This document shows, in pieces, positions 24,203 to 42,679 of a stretch of DNA of 64,000 nt. Under the pieces are notes generated by a model, which was not told the origin of the DNA, did not search any database, and worked only from the letters and a program-made list of their open reading frames with translations. Numbering within the stretch: the stretch's first letter is position 1; the number at the start of each line of letters is the position of its first letter. Position numbers and translations under genes: made by a program. The stretch comes from Escherichia coli. Lineage in GTDB: Bacteria; Pseudomonadota; Gammaproteobacteria; Enterobacterales; Enterobacteriaceae. Location of the stretch: NCBI RefSeq assembly GCF_003018115.1, contig NZ_CP027457.1; one strand, given 5' to 3'.

Positions 24203-24431
24203 GCAAAAAAGCTCCCGAAGGAGCCTTCATTTTCACTTTTTTAAATCCAACGACAGACGGCTGGCATTTAAGTATTGTGAAATATTATCAAATGTAATCA
24301 TCATTGATTTACAAAAGATACATTTTGCCCCGAAAGGATTCATGTCAGAAACATCAAAAGATGATGTTCTATACTGGGAACCATGACAACACGGGCATCT
24401 AAAGTGAATATGGTTTGTAATATTGTCTACC

Positions 24432-24644
24432 TCAAAGCGCCACTACATGAACAGCGGCAGGACCTTTAGGTCCGTTCTCAATACCAAATTCAACTTCCTG
24501 ATTCTCAGTTAATGTTTTGAAATCGTTGCTCTGAATTGCTGAGAAATGGACAAACACATCTTTGCTGCCATCTTTCGGCGTGATGAAACCAAAACCTTTT
24601 TCAGGGTTAAACCATTTCACTAAACCAGTCATTTTGTTAGACAT
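24432..24644 (-). CDS. cspI: Cold shock protein CspI
   Basis: 70 aa CspA-family sequence [23 protein letters not shown]. Confidence 0.9.
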
Positions 24645-25006
24645 AATTATTACCTTTTGAAGAAATTAGCCCTTGGGCAGAATGGTCCGAAAAAAAATAT
24701 CAGAGAGAAAAACCAACAAGGAAATCTCAAGAGGTACAAATAATAAAATTATAACAATGACTGCTTCAGATAAATTTGTAACAAACCAGAACACCATTAA
24801 CGCATGATTAACCACCCATAGCAAGGATTACTTTTGTAAAGAAAAACACAGCAATGAAAGAATAGCTTTATTTATTAATAAAACGTGTCATTCTGATTAA
24901 GACCTTTTATCTTACCCTTAAGATTTCAGGAATTTTGGCTCATGGAAGAGTCCTTTTTATTTAAATTTTACATTCCGCGATGTAAATGTTCCGATTTAAT
25001 ATTACC

Positions 25007-27045: not shown

Positions 27046-27315
27046 GCTTTTTGTGGGAGTCATCCACTTACGCACTTTGTTTTGCCATGCCAGCAGTTAG
27101 CTTCTGCTGTAAAACTATTCATGCAGCAAACCTGCACTTCACCACAATGGTTAGCATACTTTTCCTGATTAAGATTTTGCCAAATATGCTAGCCATTGTT
27201 TCATGTATTGGACCTCCTTACTTTTTATTAAAGAGATCCAATATTCACTACTCTGTCCGTATCTCTACTCAGGCATCAGCCTTCTTCGTTATCGTATACA
27301 GACGAGCGATGAATT

Positions 27316-27531
27316 TTAATCAGTAATGATGACATTTGCTGCTGCAGGACCTTTAGCACCACTCTCTATAGAGAAGGTAACCTTTTGACCTTCAAATAAG
27401 GTTCGATAATTATCATTCTGAATCGCAGAAAAATGCACAAACACATCTTTACTACCATCAACAGGAGAAATAAAGCCGAAACCTTTATCAGCGTTAAACC
27501 ATTTTACTAAACCAGTCATTTTATTTGACAT
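27316..27531 (-). CDS. cspB: Cold shock protein CspB
   Basis: 71 aa CspA-family sequence [23 protein letters not shown]. Confidence 0.9.
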
Positions 27532-27831
27532 TCTACATTCCTTAACTTGAGCCTTTCGGCATAAATGGTTTGCATAACAGAAACGACTTCGTACTTAATT
27601 GGAGAGACTCAAAGAAGGAATAAGTGAATAACACCTGAAATGAGAACTGCTTTAGTAAACTACTTCGTATATCGTCTGTTCTTCAAACCGACGCAATCAT
27701 TAACGCATAGTTGAACATATGAAGCAATGTTTATTTTAGACATCCAGCCATCTTCAACCCCATCAAAAAACTATAGCTTTCTTCAGGAACGTGTGTATAG
27801 TGCGCCAAGTTATCAGTATTAAGGAATTTTT

Positions 27832-32899: not shown

Positions 32900-34600
32900 A
32901 ACTATTTCTGTAGTCACTTTTGTGGGGACAGTCCACAAAACTGCCAACTTCCGCTTCTTGCTCTTAGCGGACATTAGCATAGGCTATTTACCATAACGCC
33001 TCATTACGCGCACCGCCCAGACTGACTCAGCGCGTTTCTGGCATATCCCCGGTAAAACAAGTAACAAACCACCCGAAAATGAACACCAGAAACGCGACTT
33101 AAGAATCTACCCTATGAATGGATATGCACTCAACCGAATCGATCTTGGTTTCAATCTTTTTTATCGGGATCAGGCTTCTTTTTAGGTAACTTCGGGGGCT
33201 TAACTTGCTGATGACTTTGCGTTCGGCGCGTAAGCCAGGGATGGTCAGCTTTAGGTTTAACATAGTATTTTGAGCGTAAATCAATACGGGCATTATCCAC
33301 TCGTTCATGGACACTCTTTTCATCATCCAGTGGTATAGGCTCCGGGCCATCAACATACTTTTCCCAGCCCAGCGCTTTCCCGTCATACAGAACGTTAATT
33401 TCACCGTCAAAGTTCTCGCATACAGTAACAACCGAATGCCTAAGTCGATATCCCCGGCCCTCACTGCGTACCTGAAACGCACTGCTTTTGTACTGGAAAG
33501 TGAGATTTTTAGACAGAACGCGCTTCGCCTGTAGGCTGAAGATATAACCCAGTTCCTCTTCAGAATGGTGCACATCAAGATGAGCATTATCAGTAGTACG
33601 AGGCGACGTAGCGAACCGGTTGTTATAGGCTTCAATAAAGGTCGGCAACCATGCATTTGCTGTTTCAATATCACTGATATTCTGAAGCCGCATTTCTTTG
33701 ACCAGCCTGTCCTGTAGTGTCTGATTGGCGCGCTCTACCCGCCCTTTTGCCTGCGGGCTGTTGGCATGGATTGGCTCGATGCCCAGTGTCTTTATCGCAC
33801 GAGTGAACTGGGTCAGCTCACCTTCCCGCTCTGGGTTATTTACCCTGAATATACTGTGTCTATCAGAGTAGAGAGCGAGCGGTACGCCATGATCATTAAG
33901 GTAACCCCGGAGGGTTTCCATGTAAGCCCGGGTTGTTTCAGCAGGCACAAAACGCAACGCCATCAACGCACTGGTGGCATCATCAATGAAAACGATCAGT
34001 GTACATCTGGGGCCTCGATTTTCAAACCAGTCATGAGGTGAGCCATCAATCTGGATCAGTTCACCGTAAGATGGTCGTCGCATGCGGCGTTGATATATAC
34101 GGGCAATTTTACGACGGCGTTCACGCCATAACCCCTCTTCTATCATCCACTTTCTGAGAGTTTCAACGGATAAAGATAAACCGTGTATCTCGCGCAATTT
34201 TTCGCACGCAAACGTAGGTCCAAAATCAGCGTAACGGCCTTTGAGGAGTGAAATTACTGTTGCTCTGAATTCAGTAGAAAAGGAATTATTAGGACGCTTT
34301 CCACGTCGGTGGGAAACCAGACCAGAAGGCCCTTCATTTCTATACCGTTGCACCAGACGTTTAACCTGCCGAATAGAAATGCCAATGCGTGCCGCAGCTT
34401 GTTCCTGAATAATCTGAAGTCGGTGGAGTTCCTTATGACTCATCGTAACAGTCTCTTTGATCATGAAAAATCCCCCAGAGAATTGTCTGGGGACATTTTA
34501 GAATGGTTCAAAGGGGACATTACAGCTTGGTGTTAACAATAGCCTGCTTCTCCGTGCCTTTCGGCACGTAAGAGGCTAACCTACATGTGTCTAGCATGAA
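32900..34600 (-). mobile_element. Insertion sequence carrying a single DDE transposase (IS481/ISNCY-type); ends not resolved
   Basis: Single 437-aa transposase ORF; terminal inverted repeats could not be assigned by eye. Confidence 0.55.
33151..34464 (-). CDS. DDE transposase with N-terminal HTH and integrase-core (rve) catalytic domain
   Basis: 437 aa; D (IQIDGS), D (YSDRHS), E (GRVERANQ) triad spacing typical of rve. Confidence 0.85.
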   Translation of the reverse strand: MIKETVTMSHKELHRLQIIQEQAAARIGISIRQVKRLVQRYRNEGPSGLVSHRRGKRPNNSFSTEFRATVISLLKGRYADFGPTFACEKLREIHGLSLSVETLRKWMIEEGLWRERRRKIARIYQRRMRRPSYGELIQIDGSPHDWFENRGPRCTLIVFIDDATSALMALRFVPAETTRAYMETLRGYLNDHGVPLALYSDRHSIFRVNNPEREGELTQFTRAIKTLGIEPIHANSPQAKGRVERANQTLQDRLVKEMRLQNISDIETANAWLPTFIEAYNNRFATSPRTTDNAHLDVHHSEEELGYIFSLQAKRVLSKNLTFQYKSSAFQVRSEGRGYRLRHSVVTVCENFDGEINVLYDGKALGWEKYVDGPEPIPLDDEKSVHERVDNARIDLRSKYYVKPKADHPWLTRRTQSHQQVKPPKLPKKKPDPDKKD

Positions 34601-34798
34601 ATTGGCCTCAGATTAATGTTAAGCGTCTTGCAGGACGCGTAATGTTAACTGGGGCTTTTCTCTATCTGCCGTTGGTGTCCATGCCCGAGGCAGATAGCCT
34701 CAAGCACCCGCAGTCATTCTACTTAACTAAGATTTCCCCGCAAACCGTTTTTGTCCAGCACAGTAAATATCCAACTAAACCAATGGAGTTCGCTGTAT

Positions 34799-35652: not shown

Positions 35653-35660
35653 TCAAAACT
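35653..35660. repeat. 8-bp target site duplication TCAAAACT (left copy) of IS66-family element
   Basis: Identical 8-mer immediately outside both inverted repeats. Confidence 0.7.
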
Positions 35661-35741
35661 GTAAGCGTCGTCTCAGCACCGTCTGGCAGATCCTGAAATT
35701 CCTGAGAGAATAGTGGACACCAAATATGGTGGACGCAATCC

Positions 35742-36146
35742 ATGAAATCATTAACCGCAGTGCGTAAAAAAAGCCCTAATTATCCCGTTGAGTTCAAAAT
35801 CAAAATGGTTGAACTCTCGCATCGACCAGAGATCTCCGTAGCGCAACTCGCTCGTGAGCATGGGATCAACGATAATTTGCTGTTCAAGTGGCGCCAGTAC
35901 TGGCGCGAAGGAAAACTACGTCCTCCTTCAACAACAGAAAACAACGTGCCTGAGCTGCTCCCGATAACACTTGATGCCGAAGATGTTGTCCCTACAACCT
36001 CCCCCCGGTCACAACCTGTAGCTGCTGCGACACCTGAATCACTCAATATCAGCTGTGAAGTGACGTTCCGGCACGGATCACTCCGTCTGAATGGTGCCAT
36101 CAGCGAAAATATCCTGAACCTGCTGATACGGGAGCTCAAACGTTGA
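35742..36146 (+). CDS. IS66-family accessory protein TnpA (orf1)
   Basis: 134 aa, HTH-like N-terminus, first ORF of element. Confidence 0.85.
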   Translation: MKSLTAVRKKSPNYPVEFKIKMVELSHRPEISVAQLAREHGINDNLLFKWRQYWREGKLRPPSTTENNVPELLPITLDAEDVVPTTSPRSQPVAAATPESLNISCEVTFRHGSLRLNGAISENILNLLIRELKR

Positions 36147-36490
36147 TCCCATTACCATCAGGGACAAAGATCTGGCTGGTCGCTGGCATCACCGATATGA
36201 GAAACGGCTTCAACGGCCTGGCGGCAAAGGTGCAGACGACGCTGAAAGACGATCCGATGTCAGGTCACGTTTTTATCTTCCGTGGGCGTAATGGCAGTCA
36301 GGTAAAGCTCCTCTGGTCTACCGGCGATGGACTGTGTCTGCTGACCAAACGGCTGGAGCGCGGCCGCTTCGCCTGGCCGTCAGCCCGGGATGGCAAAGTG
36401 TTCCTCACACCGGCACAGCTGGCGATGCTGCTGGAAGGTATCGACTGGCGGCAGCCTAAAAGACTGCTTACGTCCCTGACTATGTTGTAA
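36143..36490 (+). CDS. IS66-family TnpB (orf2)
   Basis: 115 aa, 4-nt overlap with tnpA. Confidence 0.85.
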   Translation: MIPLPSGTKIWLVAGITDMRNGFNGLAAKVQTTLKDDPMSGHVFIFRGRNGSQVKLLWSTGDGLCLLTKRLERGRFAWPSARDGKVFLTPAQLAMLLEGIDWRQPKRLLTSLTML

Positions 36491-36538
36491 GCCTCTTTAT
36501 CCTGGTCGACGCTGAATGAGCCTGGTAATATACCCGGT

Positions 36539-38074
36539 ATGAGCAGCTCACTTCCTGACGATATCAATGCACTGAAACGTCTCCTTGCCGAACAGGAGGC
36601 GCTGAACCGTGCCCTGCAGGAAAAGCTGAACGAGCGTGAACGCGAAATAGACCATCTGCAGGCACAGCTGGATAAGCTGCGCCGGATGAACTTCGGCAGC
36701 CGCTCGGAAAAAGTCTCCCGTCGTATCGCACAGATGGAAGCTGACCTGAAGGCACTTCAGAAAGAAAGTGATACCCTTACCGGTCGGGTTGACGACCCGG
36801 CCGTGCAGCGCCCGCTGCGTCAAACCCGCACCCGCAAACCGTTCCCCGAATCACTCCCCCGCGATGAAAAACGGCTGCTGCCGGCAGCGTCATGCTGCCC
36901 GGAATGTGGAGGCTCGCTGAGCTATCTGGGTGAGGATGCCGCCGAACAGCTGGAGCTGATGCGCAGCGCCTTCCGGGTTATCCGGACTGTACGTGAAAAG
37001 CATGCCTGTACTCAGTGCGATGCCATCGTGCAGGCCCCCGCGCCTTCACGGCCCATCGAGCGGGGTATCGCAGGACCGGGGCTGCTGGCCCGCGTGCTGA
37101 TCTCAAAGTATGCAGAGCACACCCCGCTGTACCGCCAGTCTGAAATGTACGGCCGCCAGGGCGTGGAGCTGAGTCGTTCACTGCTGTCGGGCTGGGTGGA
37201 TGCATGCTGCCGGCTACTGTCACCGCTGGAAGAAGCGCTTCAGGACTATGTGCTGACTGACGGTAAGCTCCATGCTGATGACACGCCTGTCCCGGTGCTG
37301 TTGCCAGGCAATAAGAAAACGAAGACCGGGCGGTTATGGACCTACGTTCGTGACGACCGTAACGCCGGGTCAACGCTGGCGCCGGCGGTGTGGTTCGCTT
37401 ACAGCCCGGACAGAAAAGGCATCCATCCGCAGACCCATCTTGCGGGGTTCAGTGGTGTACTGCAGGCGGATGCATACGCCGGGTTCAACGAGCTGTACCG
37501 GGATGGCCGGATAACGGAAGCCGCCTGTTGGGCTCACGCCCGCCGTAAAATCCACGATGTGCACGTTCGCACCCCGTCAGCCCTGACGGAGGAAGCGCTG
37601 AAACGGATCGGCGAACTGTACGCCATCGAGGCAGAGATAAGGGGAATGACGGCGGAGCAGCGCCTTGCCGAACGTCAGTTGAAAACGAAACCGCTGCTGA
37701 AATCCCTGGAAAGCTGGCTGCGTGAAAAGATGAAAACCCTGTCGCGACACTCAGAACTGGCGAAAGCGTTCGCATACGCCCTGAACCAGTGGCCGGCGCT
37801 GACGTACTATGCAGATGATGGCTGGGCTGAGGCGGACAATAACATCGCTGAAAATGCGTTGCGGATGGTCAGTCTGGGCCGCAAAAACTACCTGTTCTTC
37901 GGTTCGGATCATGGAGGAGAGCGGGGAGCGCTGCTGTACAGCCTGATCGGGACGTGCAAACTGAACGGAGTGGAGCCAGAAAGCTACCTCCGCTATGTCC
38001 TTGACGTCATAGCCGACTGGCCGATAAACCGGGTCGGCGAACTGCTCCCCCTGGCGCGTAGCACTGCCGACTGA
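36539..38074 (+). CDS. IS66-family transposase TnpC (orf3)
   Basis: 511 aa, N-terminal leucine zipper, Cys-x2-C zinc motif, DDE core. Confidence 0.9.
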
Positions 38075-38115
38075 ATAACACATCCCCGTCAATACGGTTC
38101 TTGCTGCACGCTTAC

Positions 38116-38123
38116 TCAAAACT
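38116..38123. repeat. 8-bp target site duplication TCAAAACT (right copy)
   Basis: Matches left copy at 35653-35660. Confidence 0.7.
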
Positions 38124-38593
38124 GATGTTATATTTAGCTGAACAAAAATCAGCCACTTTGTTCTTCCTCATCGTCTTTTATTTCGTGGTATGAGTAATTG
38201 CAGTAGTTAAAGAAAATTTCTTATGCTCCGTCATGAATTTCCTCAGGTGTTGCGTCATCGTCCACTTCGAATACATCCTCAAAATCTCCACCAGCTATTC
38301 CCGTTTCAATAATAATTTTGAACTTTCGCATTTCACTACCGCCCTTTCGGGCGGCCTCCTGATGTTCTGAGGGTGCAGAAATCCATCCGGTTAAGGATTA
38401 AATTTTATTTACAGAACTGAATTTAATTATTCAGATATACGTATCTGTAGCCTTACGAATCTACTCACTGGATGCCTCTTTCATAAAAATAATCCAGTGG
38501 GTTTTATCGTTTTTTCCCTGTTCGTTGACAGATAACAGGTTTTCTGTCTGTCAGTGCCAGAATCTGGCTTACCGGTATTTGCGTTTCATTCCA

Positions 38594-38950
38594 TTAAAAA
38601 ATCAGAACGCCGTGCGGCCTCAACACCCGAAAGGCTTCTTTAAATCTCTGTCGCGAATCATCACGCCAGGCATCTTTATTCAGCCGTCCATATTTCTTTC
38701 CCATCCAGGCGTTATCACCAACACTCTCAAGATGCGGAGGGTCTAATACAACCATCGAAAAAGATGCGTCTGCAAATGATAATGCACGAAAATCTGCGAT
38801 AATGTCAGGGCTGATAATCAAGCGTCTCCCATTGCGTAATGTGTATCCTTCTTTTCTGATATCGCTGAATATCGCCCGTTCGTCAGACTTATCGAACCAG
38901 AACATGCGGCTGCCACAGCACATATCAAGAATGGTTGCCGGTGCACTCAC
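38594..38950 (-). pseudogene. Truncated SAM-dependent methyltransferase-like ORF (motif I then DPPH)
   Basis: 118 aa is too short for a full Rossmann MTase; in-frame TAA followed by about 32 further sense codons. Confidence 0.4.
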
Positions 38951-39369
38951 TGCGCCACGTCCTGAAAATTACCCTGATAGAAAGCCAGTATGCGCTGCAT
39001 AACTTCGCTCTTCCGGCACTCGCGACAGATTATGTTTAGGCGACTGTCGTAGCGACGTATTTCTCCGTCAGGTGATGACCAGATAAGGTCCGGATCAACC
39101 ACAGCAGGTTTCTTCACCTTTGCCCTCGAGAGTTTTTTGCGGGCGTTTTGCCAGTCCTTACGCGCCTGTTCAGAGGGGAATAACCCGTAGCCGGAGTTGT
39201 ATACATCGCCACTGGCTACCAGCTCTCTGGCAAGAACGCTCATCAGATATCTAGTCGCACCTGTTTTAGCTTCCAGTTGCCGTAACGTCTCACGGCCGCT
39301 CTGGCGCACGAGTTCCACCACCTGCCATTTAATTTTTTCCCGCTCTTCTTGTGTAAAAACTTTTGCCAC
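38947..39369 (-). CDS. Hypothetical 140-aa prophage early-operon protein
   Basis: Translationally coupled (4-nt overlap) to downstream MTase-like ORF; no family recognised. Confidence 0.45.
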   Translation of the reverse strand: MAKVFTQEEREKIKWQVVELVRQSGRETLRQLEAKTGATRYLMSVLARELVASGDVYNSGYGLFPSEQARKDWQNARKKLSRAKVKKPAVVDPDLIWSSPDGEIRRYDSRLNIICRECRKSEVMQRILAFYQGNFQDVAQ

Positions 39370-42620: not shown

Positions 42621-42679
42621 ATTTTCTGGTGACGTTTGGCGGTATCAGTTTTACTCCGTGACTGCTCTGCCGCCCTTTT
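42621..42679 (+). ncRNA. dicF: DicF small regulatory RNA (antisense inhibitor of ftsZ translation)
   Basis: Sequence TTTCTGGTGACGTTTGGCGGTATCAGTTTTACTCCGTGACTGCTCTGCCGCCCTTTTT with 3' terminator hairpin, between ydfC and dicB. Confidence 0.75.

What the first reader, a model, noticed from the sequence alone, without database searches (positions are those of the whole stretch)
38480..38950. Methyltransferase-like ORF ending at a possible nonsense codon
The 118-aa product carries an AdoMet-binding motif I (ILDMCCGSRMF) and a DPPH amino-methyltransferase motif but stops at TAA after VLIF. By my reading the same frame continues for about 32 more sense codons, suggesting a point nonsense mutation (pseudogene) or stop-codon readthrough.
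Basis: seen in the sequence. Interest (0 to 1): 0.3.

Follow-up and report, generated by a model that had tools for sequence, protein, structure and literature searches.

The report
Dead methyltransferase gene in Qin prophage
This is an ordinary broken gene: a small phage methyltransferase in the defective Qin prophage of E. coli, inactivated by a Lys-to-stop mutation and by a one-base insertion further on.

Summary
The ORF at 38594-38950 (minus strand) encodes 118 aa with ILDMCCGSRMF and DPPH, and ends at TAA after VLIF. The same frame then runs 29 more sense codons, not 32.

The pseudogene reading is supported and the readthrough reading is not. Intact homologs are about 155-165 aa. Some are about 248 aa because of a C-terminal extension. 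They carry AAA (Lys) where the window has TAA, and Lys119 is present in 98 of 99 diverse family representatives.

A second lesion lies 78 nt downstream: a 1-bp insertion (GG to GGG, 38516-38518). It shifts the frame, so even readthrough would not restore the conserved C-terminus. Repairing both lesions gives a 162-aa ORF that matches its closest intact relative in length.

The gene sits in a Qin-type cryptic prophage, among other pseudogenes and an ISEc22 insertion. The TAA allele occurs in 474 of 5426 complete E. coli genomes, always as a single chromosomal copy, so it is not a sequencing error. Copies in this lineage have picked up further damage: substitutions at invariant residues, another stop codon, and an IS1 insertion.

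A confident model of an intact homolog shows that the truncation cuts strand beta5 and removes the beta6-beta7 hairpin. Databases name the 118-aa product as a normal methyltransferase. Interest is low.

The parts
38594..38950 (-). Truncated methyltransferase ORF of 118 aa plus stop. PGAP names the identical protein WP_001310834.1 'class I SAM-dependent methyltransferase'. It carries motif I (ILDMCCGSRMF, residues 7-17) and motif IV (DPPH, residues 70-73).
38594..38596 (-). Nonsense codon TAA at codon 119. Intact homologs have AAA (Lys) here, so the change is an A-to-T transversion at the first codon position (window base 38596). The next base is T.
   Evidence: DNA alignments. Lys119 is invariant in 58 close homologs and present in 98 of 99 diverse representatives.
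38516..38518 (-). Second lesion: a 1-bp insertion, GGG where intact homologs have GG. It shifts the frame relative to the ancestral C-terminus.
38504..38593 (-). The 29 sense codons after the TAA, then a second in-frame TAA at 38504-38506. The first 26 residues match the family sequence (WNETQIPVSQILALTDRKPVICQRTG). The last three (KKR) are out-of-frame product of the insertion.
38462..38503 (-). Remnant of the ancestral 3' end of the gene (NDKTHWIIFMKEASSE, then TAG). It is readable only after the inserted G is removed. The repaired ORF is 162 aa.
   Evidence: repair in silico; the closest intact relative, P0001, is 162 aa and ends ...KTHWIIFVKEATSE.
38947..39369 (-). Upstream DUF977 gene (140 aa). 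Its stop overlaps the methyltransferase GTG start. The same gene pair is found in intact homologous loci.
35661..38115 (+). ISEc22 (IS66 family) inserted about 480 bp downstream of the TAA, with an 8-bp target duplication TCAAAACT. It is context only and does not cause the truncation.

Best explanation
The ORF is a pseudogene of a small (about 155-165 aa) single-domain phage SAM-dependent methyltransferase (PHROG 954). It lies in the early-right operon of a Qin-type cryptic prophage of E. coli, just after the replication-protein and DUF977 genes. Two mutations disable it. AAA to TAA at Lys119 ends translation inside strand beta5. A 1-bp G insertion 78 nt downstream destroys the frame of the last 16 or so codons. 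The 118-aa product keeps the SAM-binding loop and the DPPH motif. It lacks the conserved K119-W120, helix 127-131 and the beta6-beta7 hairpin that carries the conserved KTHW..F.K residues. I infer that it cannot fold into a complete class I methyltransferase domain and is inactive. The allele is old and inherited vertically with the prophage, and it keeps decaying. The two lesions, their distribution and the continuing decay are shown. The loss of activity is inferred from the model.
For: Both lesions are visible in DNA alignments against three intact homologs. Lys119 is invariant in 58 close homologs and is K in 98 of 99 representatives sharing 41-89% identity. W120 is W in 98 of 99. Repairing both lesions gives 162 aa, the same length as the closest intact relative P0001 at 88% identity. 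Homolog lengths are 155-170 aa or about 248 aa. In phages, 244 of 254 records cover at least 80% of the repaired protein. The exact 37-mer with TAA occurs in 474 of 5426 complete E. coli genomes, one chromosomal copy each. The AAA version occurs in 386 genomes at 426 places, including plasmids. The window is colinear at 99.9% with a Qin-type prophage carrying dicA, dicC, DicF, relBE, hokD and cspB. PGAP marks the neighbouring genes as pseudogenes with internal stops or frameshifts. Variants of the truncated allele carry D30G, R108W, W18R, L38F, C12Y and F54Y at invariant or nearly invariant residues. One variant has a further stop at codon 100 and one copy is split by IS1. In that IS1-split copy PGAP itself notes 'frameshifted; internal stop'. 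An AlphaFold2 model of intact P0004 has pLDDT 94.6 and places beta5 at 110-121, a helix at 127-131, beta6 at 138-144 and beta7 at 150-156.
Against: No expression or activity data were available, so a residual role for the 118-aa fragment is not formally excluded. The 118-codon ORF stays open in hundreds of genomes, but these copies are 98.5-100% identical, so this says little about selection. The nonsynonymous-to-synonymous count inside the lineage (5 to 1 in three sampled haplotypes) is too small to be a test. The order of the two lesions is unknown.
Confidence: 0.95

Rival explanations
1. Programmed stop-codon readthrough or suppression: the TAA is decoded at some frequency to give a longer, active enzyme.
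For: The frame stays open for 29 codons after the TAA, and the first 26 of them still match the family sequence.
Against: Homologs carry a sense codon (AAA) at this position, not a conserved stop. The 1-bp insertion at 38516-38518 means a readthrough product would end ...GKKR at 148 aa. It would lack the conserved KTHW..F.K strand beta7. The stop is UAA followed by U. From established knowledge (Poole, Brown and Tate 1995, cited from memory) this is the most efficient termination context in E. coli. The window has no tRNA gene and no Rfam recoding element.
Confidence: 0.01
2. A naturally short protein: the family normally ends here, or the 118-aa form is a functional short variant, for example a SAM-binding module.
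For: PGAP and UniRef list the 118-aa protein as an ordinary 'class I SAM-dependent methyltransferase'. It is seen on at least 1000 contigs.
Against: Every 118-aa member found belongs to this one E. coli Qin lineage. All other homologs extend through residue 157 or so. The cut falls inside a core beta strand. Variants in the lineage hit invariant residues, including D30 and R108, and one adds another stop.
Confidence: 0.03
3. A sequencing or assembly error at the TAA or in the G run.
For: Both lesions lie in or next to short homopolymer runs (T6, and G3 followed by A6).
Against: The exact TAA 37-mer is in 474 independent complete genomes. The whole 581-bp segment is at least 99% identical in 383 records.
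Confidence: 0.005
4. A split gene: the C-terminal part is translated separately by re-initiation and the two parts assemble.
For: None found, apart from TAATG overlapping the stop codon.
Against: The ATG in TAATG opens a 2-codon ORF in another frame. The ancestral frame has no ATG, GTG or TTG between the TAA and the next stop (read from the sequence). No minus-strand ORF of 30 aa or more lies downstream of 38594 in that frame. The frameshift also breaks the C-terminal part.
Confidence: 0.005

Closest known systems
PHROG 954 'DNA methyltransferase', the same family as NCBI 'class I SAM-dependent methyltransferase' or 'TRM11 family methyltransferase' of lambdoid prophages (for example WP_000145671.1 at 157 aa and WP_001275732.1 at 164 aa)
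   Same: The first 118 residues share 83-88% identity. The motifs are the same (LDMCCGS, DPPH). The GTG start overlaps the upstream gene in the same way, and the gene has the same position after DUF977 in the early operon.
   Different: The window copy carries a stop at Lys119 and a +1 insertion. It matches only profile positions 52-165 of 229, against 50-201 for an intact member.
Other decayed genes of E. coli cryptic prophages such as Qin, Rac, DLP12 and CPS-53
   Same: The gene sits in a DicA-controlled Qin-type element, beside genes that PGAP marks as pseudogenes and beside IS insertions. The allele is inherited vertically at one chromosomal locus.
   Different: Nothing of substance. K-12 lacks this segment of Qin altogether. 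That statement rests on my knowledge of the K-12 map and on the dicC-to-ydfW comparison. I did not check it directly.
Amino-methyltransferases with a (D/N/S)PP(Y/F/W/H) motif: Trm11 (m2G10 of tRNA), M.TaqI (N6-adenine of DNA), TrmM, and the archaeal m4(2)C synthase
   Same: The model of the intact homolog has a class I fold. Foldseek probability is 1.0 for these enzymes, with TM about 0.5-0.6. Motif I comes before the DPPH motif, as in the gamma-type order.
   Different: Sequence identity is only 17-22%. The family has no target-recognition domain. No solved close relative exists. The substrate of the family (DNA, RNA or other) is not established.

Membership tests
Class I SAM-dependent methyltransferase fold | Glycine-rich SAM-binding loop (motif I) after strand beta1 | tested here: met
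   LDMCCGS at residues 8-14. Weak Pfam hits to Methyltransf_11 (21.6 bits against a cut-off of 21.2) and Methyltransf_25. The model of an intact homolog matches class I methyltransferases.
Class I SAM-dependent methyltransferase fold | Complete seven-stranded sheet, including the beta6-beta7 hairpin | tested here: not met
   In the pLDDT 94.6 model of intact P0004, beta5 spans 110-121, beta6 138-144 and beta7 150-156. The window product ends at residue 118.
Exocyclic-amine methyltransferases (N6-adenine or N4-cytosine of DNA, m2G or m6A of RNA) | Catalytic (D/N/S)PP(Y/F/W/H) motif IV | tested here: met
   DPPH at residues 70-73. D70, P71, P72 and H73 are invariant or nearly invariant in the family.
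Exocyclic-amine methyltransferases (N6-adenine or N4-cytosine of DNA, m2G or m6A of RNA) | Demonstrated methyl transfer to a defined substrate | not testable with these tools
   Only annotation labels are available ('DNA methyltransferase', 'TRM11 family'). No characterised member turned up in PDB or paper searches.
PHROG 954 small phage methyltransferase | Significant match across the whole profile core | tested here: inconclusive
   The match is strong (E=6.7e-58) but stops at profile position 165. An intact homolog reaches position 201. The window copy is a member by descent, but truncated.
Programmed stop-codon readthrough or recoding | The stop codon is conserved among homologs and followed by a conserved in-frame extension | tested here: not met
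   Homologs have AAA. The downstream frame is broken by a 1-bp insertion.
Programmed stop-codon readthrough or recoding | A leaky stop context, a stimulatory RNA element or a suppressor tRNA | tested here: not met
   The context is UAA-U. The window gives no Rfam hit at the site and has no tRNA gene.
Pseudogene | A disabling lesion relative to intact homologs | tested here: met
   A nonsense codon at 119 and a +1 insertion at 38516-38518.
Pseudogene | Signs of relaxed constraint | tested here: met
   Seven deviations at 98 conserved columns. Lineage variants at invariant residues, an extra stop at codon 100 and an IS1 insertion. Sample sizes are small.

The most novel reading that the evidence does not exclude
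The 118-aa N-terminal fragment, which keeps the SAM-binding loop and DPPH, could be retained in the Qin prophage because it does something as a fragment. It might bind SAM, or interfere with an incoming phage's homologous methyltransferase. That would make it more than neutral debris.
Probability: 0.02. Interest if true: 0.45.

Novelty: already known. Interest (0 to 1): 0.07.

Why it matters
It matters little biologically. It is one more decayed gene in a cryptic prophage, and strains that carry it should show no methylation from this locus. The practical point concerns annotation. RefSeq and UniRef list the 118-aa fragment (WP_001310834.1, seen on at least 1000 contigs) as an ordinary 'class I SAM-dependent methyltransferase'. 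Methylome or defence-system surveys could therefore count it as an active orphan methyltransferase. The intact family is a side issue. It is about 155 aa, has no target-recognition domain and shares 45-59% identity across phages of several phyla. It appears to be uncharacterised and may deserve study in its own right.

Tried and rejected
1. The first AlphaFold2 run used only close homologs (alignment A2) and gave pLDDT 54, so I discarded it. A second run used 99 diverse representatives and gave pLDDT 94.6.
2. Sequence and profile searches of the PDB found only generic class I methyltransferases, the best being PH0226 at E=8e-6. Foldseek gave no specific family. The substrate of the intact family therefore stays unknown.
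3. Three paper searches returned nothing on this gene family. They covered Qin with methyltransferase and DUF977, PhiR42_1 with ECOR13, and orphan methyltransferase with DPPH.
4. NCBIfam has no specific model. All hits fall far below the cut-offs.
5. I considered and rejected four alternatives: readthrough, a naturally short protein, sequencing error, and a split gene with re-initiation. They are treated under the rival explanations.
6. I considered phase variation by homopolymer slippage. The runs are short (T6, G3, A6) and the allele is the same in 383 records that are at least 99% identical, so I rejected it.
7. The ISEc22 element is not the cause of the truncation. It lies about 480 bp downstream, and genomes without it have the same TAA.

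Full report
**Observation.** The minus strand of 38594-38950 holds a 118-codon ORF.
- Its GTG start at 38948-38950 overlaps the stop of the upstream DUF977 gene (38947-39369) as GTGA.
- It encodes MSAPATILDMCCGSRMF...VVLDPPH...GVLIF and ends at TAA (38594-38596).
- The frame then runs for 29 sense codons (WNETQIPVSQILALTDRKPVICQRTGKKR) to a second TAA at 38504-38506.
- The ORF is a true gene remnant. It matches phrog_954 'DNA methyltransferase' at E=6.7e-58, but only over profile positions 52-165 of 229. An intact homolog reaches position 201.
- Pfam gives only weak generic class I methyltransferase hits. NCBIfam gives nothing above its cut-offs.

**The stop replaces a sense codon, and there is a second lesion.** I aligned the DNA with intact homologs from other E. 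coli prophages (157, 162 and 164 aa).
- These homologs have GATTTTTAAATGG where the window has GATTTTTTAATGG. That is AAA (Lys) changed to TAA by a single A-to-T change.
- Seventy-eight nucleotides further on, the window has CAGGGAAAA where all intact copies have CAGGAAAA. This is a 1-bp insertion at 38516-38518.
- The insertion explains why the open frame after the TAA ends at GKKR and does not continue as GKNDKTHWIIFMK.
- Repairing both lesions in silico gives a 162-aa ORF ending ...KTHWIIFMKEASSE. The closest intact relative, P0001, is 88% identical, has the same length and has the same kind of end.

**Homologs do not end at this position.**
The best 120 are 155-170 aa, or about 248 aa with a C-terminal extension.
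- Lys119 is invariant in 58 close homologs. It is K in 98 of 99 diverse cluster representatives with 41-89% identity, and W120 is W in 98 of 99.
- Among phage genomes, 254 records encode the family and 244 of them cover at least 80% of the 162 residues.
- The only 118-aa members found belong to this single E. coli lineage.

**Genomic setting.**
- Window 25917-47482 is 99.9% identical and colinear with the left 20 kb of record PV340562 ('Escherichia phage PhiR42_1', from ECOR13) and with E. coli G8.
- The element is a Qin-type cryptic prophage. It carries dicA, dicC, a ydaT-like gene, an O-like replication gene, DUF977, the methyltransferase, then relBE, hokD, rem, ydfU, ydfT, cspB/F and essD/rrrQ. 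It lies next to rspAB and ynfA. Rfam finds DicF, sok and two cspA-type leaders.
- Just downstream of the methyltransferase, PGAP marks a DUF7167 gene ('internal stop'), a hypothetical gene ('frameshifted; internal stop') and a partial ISNCY transposase.
- The window also carries an ISEc22 element at 35661-38115 with an 8-bp target duplication. This insertion is shared by 90 complete genomes. It lies about 480 bp from the TAA and plays no part in the truncation.

**Distribution and continuing decay.**
- The exact 37-mer spanning the TAA occurs in 474 of 5426 complete E. coli genomes, always once and always on the chromosome. The AAA version occurs in 386 genomes at 426 places, including plasmids. 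Sequencing error is therefore excluded, and the allele is old and inherited vertically.
Intact homologs have a median of 1 such departure.
- A second very common truncated allele (P0271) still has the consensus R76 and L99. This suggests the window's R76S and L99S arose after the stop.
- Other variants of the truncated allele carry C12Y, W18R, D30G, L38F, F54Y and R108W at invariant or nearly invariant residues. One has a further stop at codon 100.
- One genome has IS1 inside the gene. There PGAP itself labels the 3' fragment 'frameshifted; internal stop'.
- A single metagenome scaffold carries GAA in place of TAA and keeps the frameshift.

**What the truncation removes.**
- An AlphaFold2 model of the intact homolog P0004, built on 99 diverse sequences, is confident (pLDDT 94.6, pTM 0.89).
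- It places beta5 at residues 110-121, a short helix at 127-131, beta6 at 138-144 and beta7 at 150-156.
- The window product ends at residue 118, inside beta5. It lacks K119, W120, P138 and the T150-H-W...F155-x-K157 strand, all of which are highly conserved.
- I infer that it cannot form a complete class I domain and is inactive. This step is inference and was not measured.

**Readthrough and the other rivals.**
- Homologs carry a sense codon at this position, not a conserved stop.
- The downstream frame is broken, so a readthrough product would be 148 aa with a wrong end and no beta7.
- The stop is UAA followed by U. From general knowledge this is the strongest E. coli termination context.
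- The window has no tRNA gene and no Rfam recoding element.
- Between the two TAAs there is no ATG, GTG or TTG in the ancestral frame, so re-initiation of a C-terminal piece is not available.

**Comparison with known families.**
- By descent, this is a truncated member of the small phage methyltransferase family PHROG 954. NCBI names the family 'class I SAM-dependent methyltransferase' or 'TRM11 family methyltransferase'.
- The intact fold is a generic class I methyltransferase. Foldseek places it nearest to nucleomethylin, Trm11, Bud23, M.TaqI, TrmM and an archaeal m4(2)C synthase, at TM 0.5-0.6 and 14-22% identity.
- PDB sequence searches find no close solved relative.
- DPPH fits the (D/N/S)PP(Y/F/W/H) motif of exocyclic-amine methyltransferases. 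The family has no target-recognition domain, and I found no characterised member. 'DNA methyltransferase' is therefore an annotation and not a demonstrated activity.

**Verdict.** The pseudogene reading is correct and is strengthened by the second lesion. The readthrough reading is rejected. This is an ordinary decayed gene in a well-known cryptic prophage. Its main practical value is to flag that databases list the 118-aa fragment as a normal protein.

Noticed in passing
window 35661-38115: A complete ISEc22 (IS66 family) element. Its ends are GTAAGCG.../...CGCTTAC and it has an 8-bp target duplication TCAAAACT (35653-35660 and 38116-38123). tnpA, tnpB and tnpC are all open. It interrupts the decayed region downstream of the methyltransferase. 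The same insertion site occurs in 90 of 5426 complete E. coli genomes.
   Followed up: partly
window 38178-38331 (minus strand): Remnant of a DUF7167 gene just downstream of the methyltransferase. PGAP marks the identical sequence 'internal stop' in other genomes, and the next gene along as 'frameshifted; internal stop'. The whole early-right segment of this prophage is decaying.
   Followed up: partly
window 42624-42675 (+), 34538-34709 (-), 24405-24790 (-), 27300-27692 (-): Rfam hits to the DicF sRNA, the sok antitoxin RNA (hokD locus) and two cspA-type thermoregulator leaders. They confirm that the window is a Qin-type prophage.
   Followed up: no
L011 (ENA ERZ28647137 scaffold_4000), 353-860: A metagenome scaffold identical to the window allele except for GAA (Glu) in place of TAA at codon 119. 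The +G frameshift is still present, so the ORF ends at GKKR. It could be a further mutation of the stop, an independent change of the ancestral AAA, or an assembly error.
   Followed up: partly
family of the intact gene (P0001-P0268; phage hits H70-H109): The intact family is a methyltransferase of about 155 aa with a single domain and no target-recognition domain. It shares 45-59% identity between phages of Proteobacteria, Firmicutes, Actinobacteria and Bacteroidetes, and 35% with a haloarchaeal virus. Many members have an N-terminal extension of 50-80 aa or a C-terminal extension of about 90 aa. I found no solved or characterised member, so its substrate appears to be unknown.
   Followed up: partly
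window 38594-38950; RefSeq WP_001310834.1: Public annotation treats the 118-aa fragment as a normal 'class I SAM-dependent methyltransferase'. The exact sequence is seen on at least 1000 contigs and its 90% cluster has 385 distinct members. PGAP flags the lesions only where IS1 splits the gene.
   Followed up: yes
L007 (PV340562.1, 'Escherichia phage PhiR42_1'): A record deposited as a complete 48.7-kb phage genome is 99.9% identical to this Qin-type element. It carries the same dead methyltransferase, transposase genes, relBE and hokD. I did not establish whether it is an induced, viable phage or a predicted prophage region.
   Followed up: no
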